Part shown: piece after piece, positions 3,574 through 60,739 of the stretch | How positions within the stretch are numbered: position 1 is the stretch's first letter | Layout of the letters: each line of letters begins with the position of its first letter | Program-made: the position numbers and the translations under genes | NCBI RefSeq assembly: GCF_048403405.1 | Contig: NZ_CP183129.1 | Direction: 5' to 3' (one strand) | DNA: 64,000 nucleotides | Origin: Escherichia coli | Lineage (GTDB): Bacteria > Pseudomonadota > Gammaproteobacteria > Enterobacterales > Enterobacteriaceae | Notes under the pieces: generated by a model | Database searches by the model: none | What the model was told of the DNA's origin: nothing | Seen by the model: only the letters and a program-made list of their open reading frames with translations

Positions 3574-5559
3574 ATGAAAACCGTTAGGGAGTCCACAACG
3601 TTGTACAACTTTCTCGGATCGCACAATCCATACTGGCGGTTAACGGAAAGCAGCGATGTTTTGCGCTTTTCTACCACCGAAACCACAGAACCTGAACGTA
3701 CGTTGCAGTTATCTGCCGAACAGGCTGCTCGCATCAGGGAAATGACAGTCATCACTTCCAGTCTGATGATGAGTCTGACCGTCGATGAAAGCGATCTTTC
3801 TGTGCATCTGGTAGGACGAAAAATCAATAAACGGGAATGGGCTGGCAACGCGTCGGCATGGCATGACACACCGGCGGTTGCTCGTGATTTATCACACGGG
3901 CTTTCCTTTGCTGAGCAGGTAGTTTCTGAAGCACATTCCGCAATAGTGATTCTCGACAGTCGGGGGAATATCCAGCGCTTCAATCGGTTATGTGAAGATT
4001 ACACAGGGTTGAAAGAACACGACGTCATTGGGCAAAGCGTGTTTAAACTGTTTATGAGCCGTCGTGAAGCTGCGGCATCCAGGCGCAATAACCGTGTATT
4101 TTTTCGAAGCGGCAATGCATATGAAGTCGAACTGTGGATACCAACACGTAAAGGCCAGCGGCTGTTTCTGTTTCGCAATAAATTTGTCCACAGCGGTAGT
4201 GGCAAAAACGAGATTTTTTTAATCTGTTCCGGCACCGACATTACCGAAGAGCGCCGCGCTCAGGAGCGACTGCGCATTCTGGCAAATACCGACAGTATCA
4301 CCGGACTGCCGAATCGTAACGCAATGCAGGAGTTAATCGATCACGCTATTAATCAGGCAGATAACAATAAAGTTGGGGTTGTGTATCTTGATTTGGATAA
4401 TTTTAAAAAGGTCAACGACGCCTATGGGCATTTGTTTGGTGACCAGCTATTACGCGACGTGTCATTGGCTATTTTAAGCTGTCTCGAACATGACCAGGTG
4501 TTGGCGCGTCCAGGTGGCGATGAGTTTCTGGTACTGGCATCCAACACCTCACAAAGCGCGCTGGAAGCAATGGCATCACGAATTTTGACCCGCTTACGGC
4601 TCCCCTTTCGCATTGGTTTAATTGAAGTTTATACCAGCTGTTCAGTAGGTATTGCACTCTCTCCCGAACATGGTTCAGACAGCACGGCTATTATTCGTCA
4701 CGCCGACACAGCAATGTACACAGCGAAGGAAGGCGGACGAGGACAATTTTGCGTTTTTACCCCAGAAATGAATCAACGGGTATTTGAATATCTCTGGCTG
4801 GATACCAACTTGCGTAAAGCACTGGAAAACGATCAGTTGGTTATTCACTATCAACCGAAAATCACCTGGCGTGGCGAAGTGCGCAGTCTGGAAGCACTAG
4901 TACGTTGGCAGTCACCTGAACGTGGGTTGATTCCACCGTTGGACTTCATTTCCTACGCCGAAGAGTCAGGGCTAATTGTGCCTTTAGGCCGTTGGGTGAT
5001 TCTCGATGTCGTACGCCAGGTGGCGAAGTGGCGGGATAAAGGTATTAACCTGCGAGTGGCGGTAAATATTTCTGCACGTCAGCTCGCCGATCAAACCATT
5101 TTCACCGCCCTGAAACAGGTTCTCCAGGAACTCAATTTTGAATACTGCCCTATAGATGTTGAACTGACAGAGAGTTGTCTGATTGAGAATGATGAACTGG
5201 CACTGTCTGTTATTCAACAATTTAGCCAACTAGGTGCGCAAGTGCATCTGGATGATTTTGGTACCGGCTACTCTTCACTTTCGCAACTGGCGCGCTTTCC
5301 GATCGATGCCATCAAACTTGACCAGGTTTTTGTTCGAGATATTCACAAACAACCTGTCTCGCAGTCACTGGTCCGGGCGATCGTCGCTGTGGCCCAGGCA
5401 TTGAATCTTCAGGTGATCGCCGAAGGTGTAGAGAGTGCAAAGGAAGATGCTTTTTTAACCAAGAACGGGATCAATGAGCGGCAAGGATTTTTGTTTGCCA
5501 AACCGATGCCCGCCGTCGCCTTCGAACGCTGGTATAAACGCTATCTGAAGCGCGCATAA
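3574..5559 (+). CDS. pdeR: c-di-GMP phosphodiesterase PdeR (YciR/Gmr), PAS-GGDEF-EAL
   Basis: 661-aa ORF with GGDEF-like and EAL regions; position between rnb and yciT. Confidence 0.9.
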   Translation: MKTVRESTTLYNFLGSHNPYWRLTESSDVLRFSTTETTEPERTLQLSAEQAARIREMTVITSSLMMSLTVDESDLSVHLVGRKINKREWAGNASAWHDTPAVARDLSHGLSFAEQVVSEAHSAIVILDSRGNIQRFNRLCEDYTGLKEHDVIGQSVFKLFMSRREAAASRRNNRVFFRSGNAYEVELWIPTRKGQRLFLFRNKFVHSGSGKNEIFLICSGTDITEERRAQERLRILANTDSITGLPNRNAMQELIDHAINQADNNKVGVVYLDLDNFKKVNDAYGHLFGDQLLRDVSLAILSCLEHDQVLARPGGDEFLVLASNTSQSALEAMASRILTRLRLPFRIGLIEVYTSCSVGIALSPEHGSDSTAIIRHADTAMYTAKEGGRGQFCVFTPEMNQRVFEYLWLDTNLRKALENDQLVIHYQPKITWRGEVRSLEALVRWQSPERGLIPPLDFISYAEESGLIVPLGRWVILDVVRQVAKWRDKGINLRVAVNISARQLADQTIFTALKQVLQELNFEYCPIDVELTESCLIENDELALSVIQQFSQLGAQVHLDDFGTGYSSLSQLARFPIDAIKLDQVFVRDIHKQPVSQSLVRAIVAVAQALNLQVIAEGVESAKEDAFLTKNGINERQGFLFAKPMPAVAFERWYKRYLKRA

Positions 5560-16668: not shown

Positions 16669-19265
16669 TTATTTTTTCCCTTCAACCCATTTGCCATCAA
16701 CATAAAATGCTGACCAGCCAGTCGCCTTTCCGTCTTTTTCCGAAGAGACATATTGCTGTTTGGTTTTACGGCTAAAGCGAACCATGGTCTTATTACCTTC
16801 CGGATCCTGCTGTGGCGCATCGGCCAGATAACGCAGTTTTTCCGGCAGACGGTCGCGGAAGCGATAAAGCTCTTCCACCAATGGCGCGCGTGTTTCACGC
16901 GATTTCGGGAAGGTATTGGCCGCCAGGAACACACCGGCAGCACCGTCACGCAGCACGAAATAGGCATCTGATTTTTCGCACGGCAGCTCCGGTAATGGCA
17001 CCGGATCTTCCTTCGGTGGTGCCACTTCGCCGTTACGTAAAATCTTACGTGTGTTTTTACACTCTTCGTTAGTGCAGGCCATGTATTTACCGAAACGTCC
17101 CATTTTCAGGTGCATTTCAGAGCCACATTTTTCACACTCAACGATCGGGCCGTCATAACCTTTAATGCGGAATTCGCCCTCTTCGATCTCGTAACCGTCG
17201 CAGGTTGGGTTATTACCACAGACATGCAACTTACGTTTCGGATCGATGAGATAGCTGTCCATCGCCGTGCCGCATTTCGGGCAACGACGTTTTGCGCGCA
17301 GCGCGTTGGTTTCAGCGTCTTCACCTTCCAGCACGTTCAGCACTTCGTTTTCCGGCACCAGGTTGATGGTGGTTTTGCAACGCTCTTTCGGTGGCAGAGC
17401 GTAGCCGGAACAGCCAAGGAATACCCCGGTGCTCGCTGTGCGAATACCCATTTTGCGACCACAGGTCGGGCAGTCGATGCTGGTCAGAACCATCTGGTTC
17501 GGGCGCATCCCCCCTCTTCCGGATCTTTTTCAGCTTTATCTAACTGCTGGGTGAAATCCGAGAAGAAGTGATCCAGTACAGCTTTCCACTCTGCTTCGTG
17601 ATTTGCCACCTGGTCGAGGCTGTTTTCCATCTGTGCGGTGAAGTCGTAGTTCATTAACTCACGGAAATTCTCTTCCAGGCGATCGGTGACGATTTCGCCC
17701 ATTTTTTCCGCATAGAAACGACGATTTTCTACTCGCACATAGCCACGATCCTGAATGGTCGAAATGATCGACGCATAGGTAGACGGACGACCGATACCGC
17801 GTTTTTCCAGCTCTTTAACCAGCGATGCTTCACTAAAACGGGCTGGCGGCTTGGTAAAGTGCTGGGCTGGTGTCAGTTCAACGAGCGTCAGAGCATCGCC
17901 TTTATCGACTGCCGGTAATATACGATCTTCATCGCCTTTACGCAGTGCAGGCATCACTTTTGTCCAGCCATCAAAGCGCAAAATACGACCGCGTGCTTTC
18001 AGGCGGAAATCGCCCGCACCAACGGTCAGCGTCGTGGAGTCATATTTCGCTGGGGTCATCTGGCAGGCAACGAACTGACGCCAGATTAACTGGTACAATT
18101 TTTGCGCATCTGCTTCCATATCCTTCAACGATTCCGCCATCACATTGACGTCAGAAGGACGAATCGCTTCGTGCGCTTCCTGTGAGTTTTCTTTGCTGGC
18201 GTACTGATTCGGACTTTCCGGCAGATATTTCTTACCAAAATTATCGCTGATATAACCGCGAACCATATTTACCGCGTCCTGACTCAGGTTGGTGGAGTCG
18301 GTACGCATGTAAGTGATATAGCCTGCTTCATACAAACGCTGCGCCATCATCATGGTTTTTTTCACGCCAAAACCAAGACGGGTGCTGGCAGCTTGTTGCA
18401 GCGTAGAGGTAATAAAAGGAGCGCCAGGTTTACTGGTTGTCGGTTTGTCTTCACGTTCCAGCACGCTGTAGCGCGCTTTTTCCAGCAGACTTACCGCAGC
18501 CTGTGTTTGTTCTTTGTTGACCGGGCGGAACGGTTTGTCGTTCTGATGAGTCACCTGCAACGCCAACGCATCACCAGATGGCGTGGTCGTGCTGGCATCG
18601 ACTTCCCAGAACTCTTCCGGTACGAACGCTTTAATTTCACGCTCACGCTCGACCACCAGGCGGACCGCCACCGACTGCACACGACCTGCAGACAGACCAC
18701 GAGCGATCTTTTTCCACAGCAGCGGCGAAACCATATATCCCACCACGCGGTCCATAAAGCGACGCGCCTGCTGGGCATTAACACGATCAATATTCAGCTC
18801 ACCTGGTTTGTTAAATGCCTGGCGGATCGCGTTTTTAGTAATTTCGTTAAACACCACTCGGCTATAGCGCGCATCATCACCACCAATCACTTCCCGCAGG
18901 TGCCATGCAATGGCTTCCCCTTCGCGGTCAAGGTCGGTTGCGAGATAGATGTGGTCGGCTTTTTCAGCCAGTTGTTTCAGTTCAGAGACGACCTTCTCTT
19001 TACCAGGCAACACTTCATAGTGCGCCTCCCAATTGTGCCACGGGTCAACCCCCATACGGTTGACGAGAGCGCCACGTTCATCCTTTTTAGGCTTTTTAGC
19101 CGTCTTGGTGGAGGTAGAGTCGGCACTCTTTTTGGCAGCTGAGCCACTGGTCGGCAAATCGCGGATGTGACCGACGCTGGATTTCACCACGTAGTCACTA
19201 CCCAGATACTTGTTGATCGTTTTGGCTTTTGCCGGGGACTCAACGATGACAAGAGCTTTACCCAT
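16669..19265 (-). pseudogene. topA: DNA topoisomerase I, reading frame broken by 1-nt deletion in a C6/G6 run at 17509-17514
   Basis: N-terminal 593 codons (from [20 protein letters not shown] at 19265) end at ..KDPEEGG then out of frame; C-terminal zinc-ribbon part continues in another frame from [20 protein letters not shown] (ORF 16669..17508). Confidence 0.85.
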
Positions 19266-19929: not shown

Positions 19930-20600
19930 AAATGCGCCTATAAGGCTCTCTTACCAGCCGCGCCCTAACAGGCGCACACGATCTGACATTTGCATCCAAC
20001 TTCGTTACTTACGGCCCGTAAACGGGCTGCCCGGATAGGGAATCGATAACTGCTCTCCCATTTTATCCTCTTCAAGCTGGTGCTTTATGTAATCCTGTAT
20101 CTTCGCCGTGTTCTTACCCACCGTATCGACGTAGTACCCTCTGCACCAGAACTCCCTGTTCCTGTATTTGAATTTCAAATCACCAAACTGCTCGTAAAGC
20201 ATCAGACTGCTTTTCCCTTTCAGATATCCCATAAAGCCGGATACGCTCATTTTGGGCGGGATCTCCACAAGCATATGGATATGATCTGCACAGCATTCAG
20301 CTTCCAGAATCCGTACACTTTTCCACTCACACAGCTTTCTCAAAATACTGCCTATTGCTCTACGCTTCTCTCTGTAGAACACCTGTCTTCGGTATTTTGG
20401 CGCAAAAACTATGTGATATTTACAGTTCCATCGGGTGTGCGCTAAGCTCTTTTCGTTCCCCATTGGGACCCCCTTTTGATTTCTTGTTTGACACTTGCAG
20501 TTGCCAGACCGCAAGGTGTTTTAACAAATCAAAAGGGGTTTTAATAACTGGCTTAAAGCTGAAAGCTTTCCGGAACCCCCAGCCTAGCTGGGGGTTTTCT
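19930..20600 (-). mobile_element. IS200-family insertion sequence (IS200/IS605 family); boundaries approximate
   Basis: contains Y1 HUH transposase gene and, upstream of it, the palindrome aacccccagc-ctag-gctgggggtt (20572-20597) plus an RBS-sequestering stem-loop (20464-20530); inserted between yciN and sohB terminators. Confidence 0.7.
20005..20463 (-). CDS. tnpA: IS200 transposase TnpA (Y1 HUH)
   Basis: 152-aa product MGNEKSLAHTRWNCKYHIVFAPKYRR...HIHMLVEIPPK, near-identical to Salmonella IS200 TnpA as I recall it. Confidence 0.9.
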   Translation of the reverse strand: MGNEKSLAHTRWNCKYHIVFAPKYRRQVFYREKRRAIGSILRKLCEWKSVRILEAECCADHIHMLVEIPPKMSVSGFMGYLKGKSSLMLYEQFGDLKFKYRNREFWCRGYYVDTVGKNTAKIQDYIKHQLEEDKMGEQLSIPYPGSPFTGRK

Positions 20601-47873: not shown

Positions 47874-48554
47874 TTACCCCTGCCGCCCGATAACCACGAC
47901 CTTTCCGCCCCCGCCTTCATCACGGGTGCTGATGTCCTGGGATATACGGCGGGAGCCAACCAGCATTTCCCCGTAAGGCACCGGCATCGGGTTCCCCTGG
48001 GCAATCATGTTATCCAGTGAGGAAAAGTACGTGTTCTGTCTGCCGTTATCCGTTGCGCGGTAATCCGGTGTTTTTGCCTTCGGGGCCAGCATCTGGGCCA
48101 CACCGCCCAGAATCATGCTGGCTCCAAGTGAAAACAGCATCGTGGTGGCAGAAAAACCACCGGCTGCCAGGGCTGAACCCCATAACGCCATTGATGCCCC
48201 GGCAGTGAAGAAAGAGCCCACGATGGCTGCCGCCCCCAGCACAATCTGCAGTCCACCCTTTCCGGCCCCGGCCAGTCGCGGCACAATGTGGATGACCGTT
48301 CCCTCACCCAGCTGTTCGTGAAGACGGGCGTACACCGCCTCCGGTGCCGTGTCATAACCGGCAATACGTATCTGGTACCAGCCTTCGTTCATCTGACGGC
48401 GAAAGCCCGGCATCTGCATCGACAGGGCGCGAATGGCTTCCGCTGCCGTGTTCACATACAGGCTGAGGCGGCGGCCAAATCGTTGTAAATCCCCGTGAAG
48501 GCAGATGCGTGCCAGTGGCGGTGACGCCAGACTGAATGCGTTCGTCGTTGCCAT
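47874..48554 (-). CDS. I: tail assembly protein I
   Basis: 226-aa ORF MATTNAFSLASPPLARICLHGDLQRFGRR, lambda gpI-like. Confidence 0.9.
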   Translation of the reverse strand: MATTNAFSLASPPLARICLHGDLQRFGRRLSLYVNTAAEAIRALSMQMPGFRRQMNEGWYQIRIAGYDTAPEAVYARLHEQLGEGTVIHIVPRLAGAGKGGLQIVLGAAAIVGSFFTAGASMALWGSALAAGGFSATTMLFSLGASMILGGVAQMLAPKAKTPDYRATDNGRQNTYFSSLDNMIAQGNPMPVPYGEMLVGSRRISQDISTRDEGGGGKVVVIGRQG

Positions 48555-49185
48555 TTTTCGGAATACCTCTCCCGTTTACTCAGTTGTTCAGGCAGATGGT
48601 GAAGCAGCTCACCGTTGCCGCAGTAAATGGCGGCATGGTTCGGTACCAGCAGCACAGCAGAATATCGCCCGCCTGTGCAGAGGACAGGGGCACCCGGTAA
48701 AAGCCGGTGACCGCCATATTGTCCAGGTAAAGGTTCTGACCGTTGCGCCACCAGTCATCCTCGCGATGAAAATCCGGCATCTCAGTCCCCGCCAGATGAT
48801 AAGCATCCCGGAACAGCGTGTAACAGTCCGTCACCCCGTGCTCAAAGCGCCGTCCTGTCAGATGTGGCACACAGCGGAATTTGTGAATGTCACCCCGGCA
48901 GACCAGCCACCAGGGCAGTGCGCTTTTTATCTGCAGCCGCCGGTCAGCCTCGCTCAGCCAGGGCAGCCCACCGGGATGACTGTGGACCAGTGCCACAATC
49001 TCCCCCTGCATCTCTGCCCGCAGCCAGTCTTCCGGTGCGATACGAAAATACGCCTCCGGCTCTGCAGAAATATTCACACAAGGGATATACCACTCCCCCT
49101 CCGGCGTGCTTATCACGAAGCCGCACGACTCCGCAGGCGCACACCGCCGGGCATGCGCCAGAATCGCTGATTCAGTCTGTGTCAT
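48452..49185 (-). pseudogene. K: tail assembly protein K (JAB/MPN plus NlpC/P60), frame broken by 1-nt deletion near 48632-48645
   Basis: N-terminal part (MTQTESAILAHARR...HSHPGG...TDCYTLFRDAY...DILLCC) in one frame ends at 48580; NlpC/P60 His motif (VPNHAAIYCGNGELLHH) continues in another frame (ORF 48452..48751). Confidence 0.75.
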
Positions 49186-56182: not shown

Positions 56183-57211
56183 TTATTTCACCTGTACCAC
56201 CACAAACTCATCCGGATCCGGCAGCACCATCAGCGGAGCGGACTGCGTCATGGTGAATTCACAGGACGGATCGCCCACGGTCAGCCAGTGTTTCGGGTAA
56301 CGGGAAGAAGCCACCACTCCTTCAGACAACGCCTGTGCATCCTTAATGGCACCATAGCAACGAATCCCCTCTGCCGCCGTATTCCCCAGCACCAGCATGC
56401 CCTCCGGCAGATAACGTTTTTCGGTACCGTCCTCTGCCACATAAGACGTTTTCGCCACCACAATGGCCAGATCGCCGTAATACCCCTTGAAGGACACCAC
56501 CGCCCCCAGGTCTTTCACTGCCGTTTCGAGTTGTGAATTTGAGCCGCGACGGGTATCCAGTTTTTCGCGGAACAGCTTAAAGCCATTCAGCAGACGCCAG
56601 ACCGTACCGTCCATAATGGCGATATTCACAAGGCCGCTGGCCTGATCGCAGTAGAGGTCAATATCATGCGTCGGATCAAACGTATCACGGTCCTGCTCAG
56701 ACCATTTTTTACCGTCAGCCTGCTCAATGTTATTTCCTTCAGAGCGCCCAAAATCCACCTCGACAGTATCAAACTGATCCCCTTCCATGGTGTATTTGCC
56801 ATACAGCACGGCATTCACCGCCTGCATTTCTTCCACCTGGACAATGGCGTGCTCTTCCTGTTTGAGGTTATCGGTAATGATACGCAGACGACGGTAGGCC
56901 GGGTCGTTCAGCTGAGCCGGATCTTCACCAGGAAGGCGCTCAACCGCCTGCTGGTAATTAAATTCGTGTTTGGGCTTGACGTAGCCCGGACGTAACACGC
57001 GGGTTTCACCACCGCGATGGCGAAGCACTTTTCCTTCAACGATCGGGGAGACATAGGCCGCCACCGGCGTTTTTCCGGTAATTTTGTCCAGCATCACCTC
57101 TTCGGTGTGGAAATTCACCGTACGGCGGAAAAACAGCTCCAGAAACAGCGCACGGAATTTAACTTTTTGTTCGGTATAACCGAGTAACTGGCGGGTCGTA
57201 AACAATCCCAT
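56183..57211 (-). CDS. E: major capsid protein E
   Basis: 342-aa ORF, lambda gpE-like (..TMTQSAPLMVLPDPDEFVVVQVK). Confidence 0.95.
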   Translation of the reverse strand: MGLFTTRQLLGYTEQKVKFRALFLELFFRRTVNFHTEEVMLDKITGKTPVAAYVSPIVEGKVLRHRGGETRVLRPGYVKPKHEFNYQQAVERLPGEDPAQLNDPAYRRLRIITDNLKQEEHAIVQVEEMQAVNAVLYGKYTMEGDQFDTVEVDFGRSEGNNIEQADGKKWSEQDRDTFDPTHDIDLYCDQASGLVNIAIMDGTVWRLLNGFKLFREKLDTRRGSNSQLETAVKDLGAVVSFKGYYGDLAIVVAKTSYVAEDGTEKRYLPEGMLVLGNTAAEGIRCYGAIKDAQALSEGVVASSRYPKHWLTVGDPSCEFTMTQSAPLMVLPDPDEFVVVQVK

Positions 57212-57268: not shown

Positions 57269-57616
57269 TTACGGCAGCGCCGCGTGACTCAGGGCACTGC
57301 CGGTAAAGGCGTTGGCCTTTTTGTGTTCATCCACACTTTCAGGCCAGCGGATTGCCTCCGTCGCAAAGGTCCCCGACTTGTAATAGGTCAGCACCTCCTC
57401 TGTGCCTTCAAGCGGCAGTACCAGTATGCCAACCGCACTACCGGCTTTCTGTCCGTCCCAGACCACCAGTTTCCCGGTGGCCCCATCCAGCATCAGGGGT
57501 GTCAGTGCCGGTGTTGCCGAGGAAATCCCGCTGCTGCCTGTGGCGGTGTGAGCCGGATCATTACCGGCAAAAATACGTACTTCCGCACGCTGTTCAGTGA
57601 TGGTTTTCGTCACCAT
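57269..57616 (-). CDS. D: capsid decoration protein D
   Basis: 115-aa ORF, lambda gpD-like. Confidence 0.9.
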   Translation of the reverse strand: MVTKTITEQRAEVRIFAGNDPAHTATGSSGISSATPALTPLMLDGATGKLVVWDGQKAGSAVGILVLPLEGTEEVLTYYKSGTFATEAIRWPESVDEHKKANAFTGSALSHAALP

Positions 57617-57652: not shown

Positions 57653-59157
57653 TCATGGCATGGCCATGAGCATTTTCACGCCCGCATCACCGTCTTCTGA
57701 CGCCTGTGACACGCCCCCCTGGACCGCAGCCGGTGAATGGTTCGCCATGAAATGTTCAAACAGGGCGGTTGTGGATGCAGAGACCGGTTCTGCCTTACCT
57801 GATCCCGCAGCCAGCACAGCCCGGGCGCTCTCCACAGTCATTCCCGGGCAGGCAGCCAGCTGTTCAGCCTGCGCCTCAGCCCCTTTTGCCTCATCCAGTG
57901 CCATGATCTGATCACGGAGTGATGGTCCGGCATTCGCCTGCGGTGAAGCAGCCAGGATCGGGCGGGCTTTTTCCACCGTCATCTCCGGCATCGCCGCCAG
58001 CGTTGCCGCCAGTTGTTCACGACCGTTCGCTTCTTCACACGCCATAATGCGATCGGCTTCACTCTGTGCGGATGCCACCGGCTGCTGCGGTGCCGCCGCG
58101 GCCAGAATCGCCCGGGCCTGTTCAACGCTCATGCCCTGTTGCCCTGCCAGCATCGTGGCAAGCTGTTCACGTCCTTTCGCTTCCTGGCATGTCAGGATCC
58201 CCATCACTCGCTGGTTCTCCTGCACGGCGGCTTCCGTTGCAGTTAATTGCGGCATAGTGCCTCCTCTGACATTACTGTTCAGCGCCGTGGCCATCACACT
58301 GATGGCATCCGACGCATTGATTAATTCATCCGCCAGCCCGGCCTCAATGCCGGACTGACCTTCAAAAACGGCAGCCTCTGTTCCCGTGACCGCATCAACA
58401 GACAGACCGGTATACATCGCCACTTTTTCGGCAAACATCCGGCGCGCCACATCAATCCGCTGCTGCATGTCCTGGCGAACCTCTGCCGGCAACGCTTCAA
58501 ACTGATTGCCATCCACCTTGTGCGCTCCTGAGTAAATCAGCGTGATATCCACACCGGCCTGCGCCAGATGACCGGCATAGCTGACATGGCTCATCATCAC
58601 GCCAATGGAGCCGATACGGGATGTCTGGGTAACCAGCCGTCGGGAGCAGGCCGACGCCAGCAGCATGGCTGCAGAACAGGCCGTGTCATTACACAGTGCC
58701 CAGACCGGCTTCTGCTGCCGGAGGCGGTAAATCATGTCAGCGCAGTCAAACGCGCCGGCGGCCTGCCCGCCCGGACTGTCAATGTCCAGCAGTATGCCCC
58801 GCACCTGGCTATCTGCCATTGCCTGCTGAAGACAGGCGACAATGCCGTCATAGCCAGTCATTCCGGAAAATGGCCGCATCCCCCCAGCCGGTGCACCAGC
58901 GTGCCGGTCACCGGCAGTACCGCAATACCGTTCACCACCCGGTAAACACGGGCCGGTCGTTTACCTCCGGCCATGTACTCGTCCGTTTCAGCCAGCATCC
59001 CGGGAGCATCAAGCTGTACCTGCTGTTGCGGTACCGAAAGACTTGCTGCCCCCATCTCGCGCCCGAGCGCGCAAAAGAAAACCCGCGCATAGGCGGGCTC
59101 CAGAAGCAGCGGTTCATTGAATGCTGCGGCAATAATGTGTGAAAGATTACGTCTCAC
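57653..59157 (-). pseudogene. C: head protease/scaffold C-Nu3 (S49 family), frame broken by 1-nt deletion in a C6/G6 run at 58880-58885
   Basis: N-terminal ORF 58858..59157 (MRRNLSHIIAAAFNEPLLLEPAYARVFF...GIAVLPVTGTLV) ends just after the homopolymer; remainder (MRPFSGMTGYDGIV...) continues in another frame. Confidence 0.8.
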
Positions 59158-60739
59158 GTGGTGTTGTCTCCTCTTCCGGCCTGCGACTCTCCGCTATCTG
59201 CTGCTGATACGCCTGCGCTATCCACACCGGACGTGAGAGTCCGGCTTTTTCCCGCTCTGCAGATTCCCTGACCTGCTGGCGGAAAATGTCCTGATAATCC
59301 TCGCCCATCAGCGCCAGCTCTTTCTCATACGTGCTCAGTCCGGCCTCAATGCGCATCACTGATTCCTGAACCTCCTTGAGCCCGTCAATGGCCATTCTTC
59401 CGGCTCCAATCCACTCAGCCCGTGACCAGGCTGATCGCGCCTGATAAAAATCAAAACGCGCCCGTGGCGGACGAATAATCCCCCGAAGAAGTGCCTCTTC
59501 CAGCCAGCAGGAAAACATCTGCGTGGCCAGCCGGGACGCAATAAATTTTCGCCGCCCCATAAAATAGCGCCACGACTCATTGGCGGATGCGCGGGCACTT
59601 GAATAACTGACCTTCGAGTAATCACGGGACAACTGTTCGTAGGAAACGCCAAGACCGGCGGCGATATACCGCAGCAGCGCCTGTTCAAGCGCCGAAAATC
59701 CATTGTCTGAATCCTGCGCGGTCTGAAGTTTCAGATCATCACCGGGGAAAAGGTGCGGAATTTTGACACCGCCCAGCGTCACGCTATTCGTGTCATACCA
59801 GGTGGAGAACTTCTCCAGAATATTAATAAGCGGATTATCCTTCTGCCCCTGCGGCGCACCGGCGATATATTCAAAGGCCTTTTCGGTATCAAGTTCACTT
59901 TCAATCGTCGCTGCATACATCGCCTTCACTATGGCCGACTGAAGCTGTGTTGCCTGCAGGGAATCGAGCATCTTCAGCCGTTCCATTACGCTGTAAAACT
60001 GATTGGCCCCACGGGTCTGCCCGTCCTCCACCGGCTCGAAAATATGCAGCATGGCCGGACGCCCGGTGGGAAGTTCACGCGGGATCCGTTCCCATCGTCC
60101 ACTCCCGGAGCGAGGAAAATCATCCTCACAGATATGGTACGCAACGGCACGACCATATCGATCGACCTCCACACCGGCCCGCAGAAAACGGTTCCCCATA
60201 CCGTGTCCTGGCGTGTCCACCCGTTTCGGACTCACGGCTTTAAAACGCGTACGAAACAGTTGCGTGCTCTCCGTATCCCAGACCGGCTGCACAAAGATTT
60301 CGCCGTTAAACGCATGAACGCCCACACCTTCACGGATAAATTCCGTGAACGTGCGTTTCCCTTCCATGTCGATCTCGCCAAACATCCCTTCGGCGTATTC
60401 CGACCAGGCCGCCTCCACCTCATCGACAAAACTTTTTGCCGCAGTCTCCCGCATCCCCAGCCAGCGCCAGTTCGGACGGTAGCTGATCAGAAACATATGC
60501 CCGACAATATGATCCTTATGCAGGGCCACCGCATTAGCCGCTATCCCGTTATTGCGCACCAGATCATCTGCCCGGGCATTCCCCAGACGCAACGCAGGCA
60601 GCAGGGCTGCATCGGCACTCTGCGCCGGTGGCAACCACTCCGCCATTTGCCCGCCAAATCCTGCGCCGCCCCCGTTGTAGCTGAGACTCTCACGAAGCGG
60701 AACGCCGTTCACATCAATCAGGACAGGCGTTCGTTTCAT
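59147..60739 (-). CDS. B: portal protein B
   Basis: 530-aa ORF, lambda gpB-like. Confidence 0.95.
   Translation of the reverse strand: MKRTPVLIDVNGVPLRESLSYNGGGAGFGGQMAEWLPPAQSADAALLPALRLGNARADDLVRNNGIAANAVALHKDHIVGHMFLISYRPNWRWLGMRETAAKSFVDEVEAAWSEYAEGMFGEIDMEGKRTFTEFIREGVGVHAFNGEIFVQPVWDTESTQLFRTRFKAVSPKRVDTPGHGMGNRFLRAGVEVDRYGRAVAYHICEDDFPRSGSGRWERIPRELPTGRPAMLHIFEPVEDGQTRGANQFYSVMERLKMLDSLQATQLQSAIVKAMYAATIESELDTEKAFEYIAGAPQGQKDNPLINILEKFSTWYDTNSVTLGGVKIPHLFPGDDLKLQTAQDSDNGFSALEQALLRYIAAGLGVSYEQLSRDYSKVSYSSARASANESWRYFMGRRKFIASRLATQMFSCWLEEALLRGIIRPPRARFDFYQARSAWSRAEWIGAGRMAIDGLKEVQESVMRIEAGLSTYEKELALMGEDYQDIFRQQVRESAEREKAGLSRPVWIAQAYQQQIAESRRPEEETTPRET

What the first reader, a model, noticed from the sequence alone, without database searches (positions are those of the whole stretch)
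57653..59157. Prophage head protease/scaffold gene C-Nu3 broken at a C6/G6 homopolymer
The C N-terminus (ORF 58858..59157) stops just after a run of six C at 58880-58885, and the S49 protease/Nu3 region continues in another frame from MRPFSGMTGY. It is the same homopolymer-deletion signature as topA, which argues for systematic indel error; if genuine, the prophage cannot mature heads.
Basis: partly seen in the sequence, partly recalled or inferred. Interest (0 to 1): 0.4.

Follow-up and report, generated by a model that had tools for sequence, protein, structure and literature searches.

The report
Probable one-base sequencing error in prophage protease gene
A well-known prophage head-protease/scaffold gene looks broken because a run of seven G's is written as six, and the same one-base loss in the essential topA gene of the same sequence makes an assembly error much the likeliest cause, so the finding is ordinary.

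Summary
The phage-21/lambda-type head protease-scaffold gene (C/Nu3 homologue, minus strand 59157..57653) is split at a six-base run (C6 on +, 58880-58885). A 99-aa N-terminal piece stops 20 nt later. A 408-aa S49-protease/scaffold piece continues in another frame. Adding one G restores a 501-aa protein whose DNA otherwise matches the intact genes of strains 118UI and ECO_1_S. The break is most likely an assembly artefact (about 0.87).

- The 26 kb of prophage in the window has no substitutions against ECO_1_S, only this 1-nt loss and a 10-bp deletion.
- The 38 kb of chromosome differs from strain MS 69-1 by one SNP and the same C7-to-C6 loss in essential topA, in the same context (GGGGGGGATGCG).
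- Two of the three G/C runs of seven in the region are shortened.
- An independent read-set assembly of the identical prophage has G8.
- With identical flanks, RefSeq complete E. coli genomes show G6:G7:G8 = 10:425:2.
- Isolated phages encode the same Gly-Gly as GGTGGT.

A real slippage mutation cannot be excluded without reads (about 0.1). If real, the protease is lost while the nested scaffold ORF stays intact. Interest is low.

The parts
57653..59157 (-). Whole span of the head protease/scaffold gene (lambda C/Nu3 homologue; phage 21 genes 5 and 6). It is 1505 nt here and 1506 nt in intact copies.
   Evidence: It is 99.9% identical to the CDS of WP_109866648.1 (S49 family peptidase), with a single 1-nt gap, and 98.1% identical to phage 21.
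58880..58885 (.). Homopolymer run: C6 on the + strand, G6 on the coding strand. It is G7 in intact copies, where the codons are CTG GGG GGG ATG (L-G-G-M).
58858..59157 (-). N-terminal fragment ORF (99 aa, GTG start). Its last 6 residues (CGHFPE) are out of frame.
   Evidence: matches phrog_53 positions 4-93, E=3.7e-32.
57653..58879 (-). Downstream fragment ORF (408 aa), starting at the ATG directly after the run. It contains the S49 protease domain (residues 53-200) and the scaffold-like C-terminal part with three 'Tri' repeats.
   Evidence: PF01343, E=7.3e-35; phrog_53 positions 92-583, E=3e-187. Tri boxes annotated in phage 21.
57653..58255 (-). Nested in-frame Nu3-like scaffold ORF (200 aa), preceded by GAGGAGG at 58260-58266. 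The frameshift does not affect it.
   Evidence: sequence and translation; phage 21 gene 6 is annotated at the equivalent position with its own ribosome-binding site.
59147..60739 (-). Portal gene (lambda B homologue). It overlaps the start of the protease gene by 11 nt. Context only.
57269..57616 (-). Head decoration gene (D/shp homologue) immediately downstream. Context only.
17509..17514 (.). Companion site: a C6 run in topA (C7 in relatives), which splits topA into 593-aa and 279-aa ORFs. On the coding strand it has the same context, G(7 to 6)ATGCG.

Best explanation
The gene is an ordinary, intact-type head maturation protease/scaffold gene of a phage-21-like (lambdoid) prophage inserted in ompW. 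The apparent break is most probably a consensus or base-calling error. A run of seven G:C pairs, encoding Gly-Gly as GGG GGG before ATG, has been written as six. The same thing happened in topA in the same assembly. Shown here: the run is one base shorter than in otherwise identical copies, and the only two 1-nt indels in 64 kb sit in G/C runs of seven with the same flanking sequence. Inferred: the cause is technical rather than biological.
For: 1. Prophage comparison. Window 37984-64000 (26 kb) has 0 substitutions against the prophage of E. coli ECO_1_S. The only differences are C7 to C6 at 58880 and a 10-bp deletion at 48648.
2. Chromosome comparison. Window 1-37983 differs from the complete genome of MS 69-1 by 1 SNP and by C7 to C6 in topA at 17509.
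3. topA is essential. The N-terminal TOP67 part alone cannot remove negative supercoils (PMC4678816), and the shift falls 3-4 codons before Q591, the first residue of domain D5. Only 3 of 5420 complete genomes show the C6 form. The one inspected also has trpE and pdeR 'frameshifted' within 24 kb.
4. Run counts. The reference sequences have three G/C runs of 7, and two of them are shortened in the window. Those two share the context GGGGGGGATGCG; the retained one has a different context. All 22 A/T runs of 7-8 and all nine G/C runs of 6 are unchanged.
5. Independent data. A Logan assembly of run SRR28002182 gives a 9,995-bp contig with 0 substitutions against the window but G8 at this run. The same prophage therefore appears as G6, G7 and G8 in three data sets.
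6. Other carriers of the same 99-aa fragment. Six of the ten assemblies shown have further split genes next to it, in terminase, portal, protease or capsid.
7. Contrast with real frameshifts. The lineage frameshifts in yciQ and yciF are shared with MS 69-1. The topA and protease shifts are not shared with any near relative.
8. Literature. Errors in long-read assemblies are mainly short indels at homopolymers, biased towards deletions and dependent on k-mer context (PMC12007338).
Against: - No reads or platform information are available, so the error is inferred, not observed.
- The window is otherwise clean, with only two 1-nt indels in 64 kb, so this is not a grossly error-ridden assembly.
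- In RefSeq complete genomes, G6 in this gene (10 of 437 exact-flank copies, or 10 of 1798 records) is 10-40 times commoner than C6 in topA at the same local context (3 of 5420). Some G6 alleles of this gene may therefore be real. Alternatively, multi-copy prophage DNA may simply be polished less well.
- The unique 10-bp deletion in the neighbouring tail gene K homologue is not a typical homopolymer error. If it is real, it shows that this prophage copy is already decaying.
Confidence: 0.87

Rival explanations
1. This is a genuine G7-to-G6 slipped-strand deletion, and the prophage's protease gene is a true pseudogene. The 99-aa N-terminal piece and, at best, an N-terminally truncated protease would be made. 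The nested Nu3-like scaffold would still be expressed. Proheads would assemble poorly and could not be processed, so the prophage could not form infectious particles.
For: - G:C runs of 7 are known slippage hot spots (general knowledge).
- G6 alleles occur in many different sequence backgrounds: 10 RefSeq complete genomes, and 183 blocks of the protein collection, where the ten loci read were 1.5-3.7% divergent from the window.
- Their frequency is 10-40 times that of the equivalent topA change.
- The same prophage copy carries a unique 10-bp deletion in the K-like tail gene. If real, that deletion points to ongoing decay.
Against: - The coincident identical change in essential topA, in the same 12-mer context, with only one SNP in 38 kb against the nearest relative, would need two independent rare events, one of them strongly counter-selected.
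- Zero substitutions in 26 kb of prophage means there has been almost no time for decay.
- The same prophage sequence appears with G8 in another data set, which shows that the run length is unreliable in sequence data.
Confidence: 0.1
2. The six-base run is functional. Full-length protease would be made by programmed ribosomal frameshifting or transcriptional slippage on the G run. Alternatively, a working N-terminally truncated protease would be made by reinitiation at the ATG that abuts the run.
For: Only circumstantial. An ATG directly follows the run, and the upstream ORF stops 20 nt later, so termination-reinitiation is geometrically possible.
Against: - The out-of-frame arrangement is not conserved. 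Among exact-flank copies, 425 are in-frame G7 against 10 with G6.
- All isolated phages examined encode the site in frame as GGT GGT, with no run at all.
- PGAP annotates G6 copies as frameshifted pseudogenes.
- G GGG GGA is not a canonical X XXY YYZ slippery heptamer (general knowledge).
- No downstream stimulatory structure was sought, because the lack of conservation already argues against this reading.
Confidence: 0.02

Closest known systems
Phage 21 genes 5 and 6 (head-tail preconnector gp5/gp6; GenBank M81255, OL657228), the phage 21 counterparts of lambda C and Nu3
   Same: 98.1% DNA identity over the whole gene. The length is the same once one base is restored (1506 nt). Both start with GTG and overlap the portal gene. 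The internal scaffold start and its ribosome-binding site are at the same position, and the three Tri repeats are the same. The downstream decoration and major capsid genes match too.
   Different: Phage 21 and the other isolated phages examined write the Gly-Gly codons as GGT GGT, so they have no homopolymer. The window has GGGGGG, one base short of the GGG GGG found in prophage copies.
Lambda gpC head maturation protease with nested scaffold gpNu3 (peptidase family S49)
   Same: The domain make-up is the same: an N-terminal part, an S49 protease domain, and a C-terminal scaffold region translated separately from an in-frame internal start. The gene order portal, protease/scaffold, decoration, major capsid is also the same. 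PMC3224144 describes C, Nu3 and B as forming the initiator of head assembly.
   Different: The sequence belongs to the phage 21 lineage rather than to lambda proper; the phage 21 record notes BLASTp similarity to lambda C at 4.9e-139. As written, the gene in the window is split.
Homopolymer deletion errors in long-read or flow-based genome assemblies
   Same: A single-base deletion confined to a homopolymer. It recurs at the same k-mer context in an essential gene. The run length differs between data sets for the same DNA (G6, G7, G8). Other assemblies carrying the same change show clusters of split genes (PMC12007338).
   Different: Only G/C runs of 7 are affected here. A/T runs of 7-8 are all intact, and the platform of this assembly is unknown.
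Frameshifted S49 peptidase pseudogenes annotated by PGAP in E. coli prophages (for example AB9K51_RS10020 in strain CRE287)
   Same: The same G6 run in the same 86-mer, the same truncated product, and a 'frameshifted' annotation.
   Different: These are in different prophage variants (99.0% identity to the window over the gene) and different host backgrounds. Whether those cases are errors or real mutations is equally unresolved.

Membership tests
Peptidase S49 / lambda gpC-type head maturation protease (phrog_53) | Significant match to the S49 peptidase domain model | tested here: met
   PF01343, E=7.3e-35, 120.6 bits against a cut-off of 24.9, residues 53-200 of the 408-aa ORF. phrog_53, E=3e-187.
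Peptidase S49 / lambda gpC-type head maturation protease (phrog_53) | One continuous ORF of about 500 aa covering the N-terminal part, the protease and the scaffold-like C-terminus | tested here: not met
   As written, the gene is split into 99-aa and 408-aa ORFs. It is continuous (501 aa) only after one G is inserted. The two pieces abut on the profile, at positions 4-93 and 92-583.
Peptidase S49 / lambda gpC-type head maturation protease (phrog_53) | Head-gene synteny: terminase, W, portal, protease/scaffold, decoration, major capsid | tested here: met
   ORFs. Annotated counterparts in the identical prophage of ECO_1_S and 118UI.
Peptidase S49 / lambda gpC-type head maturation protease (phrog_53) | Catalytic serine (and partner residue) conserved | not tested
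   There is no residue-level alignment to a characterised gpC or SppA. The restored gene has the same length and frame as the CDS of WP_109866648.1, and the window differs from that gene's DNA by one gap only. No residue is therefore changed relative to intact copies.
Nested scaffold gene (lambda Nu3 / phage 21 gene 6) | In-frame internal start with its own ribosome-binding site in the 3' third of the protease gene | tested here: met
   ATG at 58255 preceded by GAGGAGG, giving a 200-aa product. It is at the same position as the annotated phage 21 gene 6 and its ribosome-binding site. Expression was not tested.
Programmed frameshift / recoding site | The out-of-frame arrangement is conserved among functional homologues | tested here: not met
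   G7 in frame in 425 exact-flank records against G6 in 10. The isolated phages examined have GGGTGGT in frame.
Phase-variable (contingency) homopolymer locus | On and off tract lengths are both common among strains, and the tract itself is conserved | tested here: not met
   G6:G7:G8 = 10:425:2. The tract is absent from the isolated phages, which use GGT GGT.
Assembly / base-calling homopolymer error | The indel is confined to a homopolymer and absent from near-identical relatives | tested here: met
Assembly / base-calling homopolymer error | The same class of indel occurs elsewhere in the same assembly, including in genes that cannot be lost | tested here: met
   topA C7 to C6 at 17509 in an identical 12-mer context. 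Two of the three G/C runs of 7 are affected.
Assembly / base-calling homopolymer error | Raw reads or an orthogonal technology show the longer run | not testable with these tools
   No reads are available. The nearest proxy is an independent Logan contig of the identical prophage with G8. It could not be shown to come from the same strain.

The most novel reading that the evidence does not exclude
The GGG GGG codon pair in this prophage clade's protease gene is a genuine slippage hot spot that recurrently and heritably inactivates head maturation in nature. This would explain why G6 alleles are 10-40 times commoner here than at the identical sequence context in topA. The window would then be one natural instance, possibly in a strain that also carries a real split of topA at the TOP67/TOP30C boundary.
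Probability: 0.06. Interest if true: 0.3.

Novelty: not a real feature. Interest (0 to 1): 0.07.

Why it matters
The main value is quality control. The window's assembly appears to lose one base in G/C runs of seven, so any pseudogene call from this genome that rests on such a run, including essential topA, should not be trusted without reads. If the frameshift were real, it would only mean one more defective lambdoid prophage, with the protease lost and the scaffold retained. That is common and well understood. A side observation could be followed up across many genomes. The prophage clade writes Gly-Gly as a fragile G7 run where isolated phages use GGT GGT. Length variants at this run are more frequent than at the same motif in topA.

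Tried and rejected
- Looking for the window's own genome. No RefSeq complete E. coli genome combines this chromosomal backbone (MS 69-1, TUM14771, 4621) with this prophage (ECO_1_S, 118UI and others). MS 69-1 has an intact ompW and no prophage there.\n- Exact-protein look-ups to find the source or a sister data set. The 402-aa downstream product was found only in Logan SRR28002182, which has G8. The truncated K-like product is not on record, so the 10-bp deletion could not serve as a strain marker. The 102-aa protein carrying the only chromosomal SNP is present in 18,057 blocks and is not discriminating. The ten loci read for the 99-aa fragment are all 1.5-3.7% divergent from the window.\n- Mutator-strain explanation. 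I considered it and set it aside. One SNP in 38 kb and none in 26 kb leave too little divergence for two of three G7 runs to have mutated, and topA loss is counter-selected. This is reasoning from general knowledge, not a computation.\n- Programmed frameshift or reinitiation. Rejected because the arrangement is not conserved.\n- Structure prediction, distant-homologue searches and RNA searches were not used. The gene's identity was already unambiguous at 98-99.9% DNA identity to annotated genes.

Full report
**What is in the sequence.** On the minus strand, 59157..57653 is a homologue of the lambdoid head protease/scaffold gene. It follows the portal gene (59147..60739, overlapping by 11 nt). 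The head decoration gene (57269..57616) and the major capsid gene (56183..57211) follow it. The coding strand reads CAC CGG CTG GGG GGA TGC GGC CAT TTT CCG GAA TGA. The six G's lie at 58885..58880, which is C6 on the + strand, exactly as reported and as listed. The first ORF (58858..59157, 99 aa, GTG start) stops 20 nt after the run. The second (57653..58879, 408 aa) starts MRPFSGMTGY at the ATG touching the run.

The 408-aa piece contains Peptidase_S49 (PF01343, E=7.3e-35, 120.6 bits against a 24.9 cut-off). The two pieces match adjacent stretches of one PHROG profile, phrog_53 'head maturation protease', at positions 4-93 and 92-583. That pattern is the signature of a single gene cut by a frameshift. 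Inserting one G gives a 1506-nt, 501-aa ORF. A nested in-frame ORF (58255..57653, 200 aa) with GAGGAGG just upstream corresponds to the separately annotated scaffold gene 6 of phage 21, the counterpart of lambda Nu3. The frameshift does not touch it.

**Identity of the gene.** The stretch is 98.1% identical to phage 21 genes 5 and 6. It is 99.9% identical, with a single 1-nt gap, to the intact 'S49 family peptidase' CDS (WP_109866648.1) of E. coli 118UI, ECO_1_S and others. In those genomes the run is G7, read as CTG GGG GGG ATG (L-G-G-M). Phage 21, ev017, PhiR57_1, 4C10 and 1W encode the same residues as CTG GGT GGT ATG, with no homopolymer. In lambda, C (the protease), Nu3 (the scaffold) and B (the portal) form the initiator of head assembly (PMC3224144, which cites Medina et al. 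2010 for gpC as the viral protease).

**Comparison with the nearest relatives.** Window 37984-64000 is the part of a prophage inserted in ompW that lies within the window. Over these 26,017 bases it has no substitutions against E. coli ECO_1_S (NZ_CP065821). The only differences are the C7-to-C6 change at 58880 and a 10-bp deletion at 48648. The chromosomal part, 1-37983, differs from the complete genome of E. coli MS 69-1 (NZ_CP146675) by one SNP (23590) and by a C7-to-C6 change at 17509 inside topA.

The only two single-base indels in 64 kb are therefore both contractions of a G:C run of seven. On their coding strands both read GGGGGG(G)ATGCG, and both happen to encode Gly-Gly-Met-Arg-Pro. 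The reference sequences contain three G/C runs of seven. Two are shortened in the window, and the third (26573, context ATGGGGGGGAATGG) is kept. All 22 A/T runs of 7-8 and all nine G/C runs of six are unchanged. By contrast, the frameshifts in yciQ and yciF that distinguish this lineage from ECO_1_S are also present in MS 69-1. PGAP labels them 'frameshifted' there, which is how real lineage pseudogenes behave.

**Why the topA site matters.** topA has an essential role in preventing hypernegative supercoiling. The N-terminal domains (TOP67) alone cannot remove negative supercoils, and the first residue of the C-terminal domain D5 is Q591 (PMC4678816). The shift in the window falls at ...EEGGMRPNQ..., at that domain boundary. 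It yields a 593-aa piece and a 279-aa piece.

Among RefSeq complete E. coli genomes, 5415 of 5420 have the longer run and three have the exact C6 86-mer. One of those three, UID2309220031, also has trpE and pdeR annotated 'frameshifted' within 24 kb. That strain name belongs to a series that also supplies two of the G6 protease genes. Logan assemblies carrying the split topA differ from each other at a T run as well, T7 against T5. The split topA in public data therefore goes with error-prone assemblies. A real topA split in this strain is unlikely.

**Population and independent data for the protease run.** With identical 40-nt flanks on both sides, RefSeq complete genomes show G6 in 10 records, G7 in 425 and G8 in 2. 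A G6 copy that was inspected is annotated as a frameshifted pseudogene.

The exact 99-aa fragment is on record in 183 blocks of the protein collection. Of the ten loci shown, six have other split genes right beside it, in terminase, portal, protease or capsid. All ten are 1.5-3.7% divergent from the window, so the change recurs in unrelated backgrounds. The exact 402-aa downstream product was found once, on a 9,995-bp Logan contig from run SRR28002182. That contig has no substitutions against the window, but its run is G8. One and the same prophage sequence thus appears as G6, G7 and G8 in three data sets. Long-read assembly errors are mostly short homopolymer indels, biased towards deletions and dependent on k-mer context (PMC12007338).

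**Weighing the explanations.** The artefact reading explains the following:
- the shared sequence context of the two sites;
- the hit in an essential gene;
- the absence of any other divergence;
- the G6/G7/G8 scatter across data sets.

I put it at about 0.87. What keeps it below certainty:
- No reads could be examined.
- The window is otherwise clean.
- G6 in this gene is 10-40 times commoner than C6 in topA at the same motif (10/437 or 10/1798 against 3/5420). This could mean real recurrent decay of prophage copies. It could equally reflect poorer polishing of prophage DNA, since seven of the ten G6 records hold 2-4 copies of the 86-mer.
- The same prophage copy has a unique 10-bp deletion without microhomology in the K-like C40 peptidase tail gene. 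None of 1543 genomes shares it, and it does not look like a homopolymer error.

A real slippage mutation gets about 0.1. In that case the protease would be lost and the scaffold kept, and heads would not be processed. A recoding or reinitiation mechanism gets about 0.02, because the out-of-frame state is not conserved.

**Verdict.** The gene is a textbook member of the lambda C/Nu3 (phage 21 gp5/gp6) family. The break is most likely not a biological feature. Its practical meaning is a warning about G/C runs of seven in this assembly. Interest is low (0.07).

Noticed in passing
window 17509-17514 (topA, minus strand 16669..19265): topA is split into 593-aa and 279-aa ORFs by a C7-to-C6 change at the TOP67/TOP30C domain boundary. 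5415 of 5420 RefSeq complete E. coli genomes have the longer run. The 12-mer context is the same as at the protease gene.
   Followed up: yes
window 48648 (K-like C40 peptidase tail gene, minus strand about 49185..48452): A 10-bp deletion (GAAGCACCAA on the + strand of ECO_1_S) with no flanking microhomology frameshifts the tail gene after about 179 codons. None of 1543 E. coli genomes holding this region shares it, and the truncated product is not on record. It could be a real lesion or an assembly fault.
   Followed up: partly
window 27731 (yciQ) and 36782 (yciF): One-base differences from ECO_1_S that frameshift yciQ (A6 against A7) and yciF. They are shared exactly with the MS 69-1 complete genome, where both genes are annotated 'frameshifted'. 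They look like genuine lineage pseudogenes.
   Followed up: partly
window 37984-64000: A prophage is inserted in ompW, and only the 3' end of ompW remains at about 37866-37983. It has 0 substitutions against the ECO_1_S prophage, although the flanking chromosome differs by about 0.6-1.4%. This suggests very recent horizontal spread of an active phage.
   Followed up: partly
window 58877-58888; loci L002, L032, L033, L035, L036: Isolated phages (21, ev017, PhiR57_1, 4C10, 1W) encode the Gly-Gly as GGT GGT. The prophage clade in E. coli genomes uses GGG GGG, which creates the fragile G7 run.
   Followed up: yes
E. coli RefSeq complete genomes: Run-length variants at the protease gene (G6:G7:G8 = 10:425:2 with identical flanks) are 10-40 times more frequent than the C6 variant at the same motif in topA (3 of 5420). 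The cause is unresolved: real decay, or poorer polishing of multi-copy prophage DNA.
   Followed up: partly
L018 (Logan SRR28002182 contig 158), positions about 4560-4568: An independent 9,995-bp contig identical to the window's head-gene region (0 substitutions) carries G8 at the run, which also breaks the frame (103-aa N-terminal fragment).
   Followed up: partly
window 57700-58200 (Nu3-like part of the gene): Three tandem ~40-aa repeats of the type ...IM(G/A)(I/C/L)..EA.GRE.LA..LA...GM(S/T)VE.AR.(I/V)LAA.... They are annotated in phage 21 (M81255) as Tri1, Tri and Tri3 boxes of unknown function.
   Followed up: no
window 20005-20514: An IS200C-type transposase lies between yciN and sohB. 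It is shared with MS 69-1 and absent from ECO_1_S.
   Followed up: no
L034 (CP025907.1, 'Escherichia phage 204576'): This unannotated 'phage' record has G7 at the run but lacks a C eight bases upstream (CACGGCTG instead of CACCGGCTG). Its gene span is 1500 nt against 1506 nt, so it looks like another indel-prone record.
   Followed up: no
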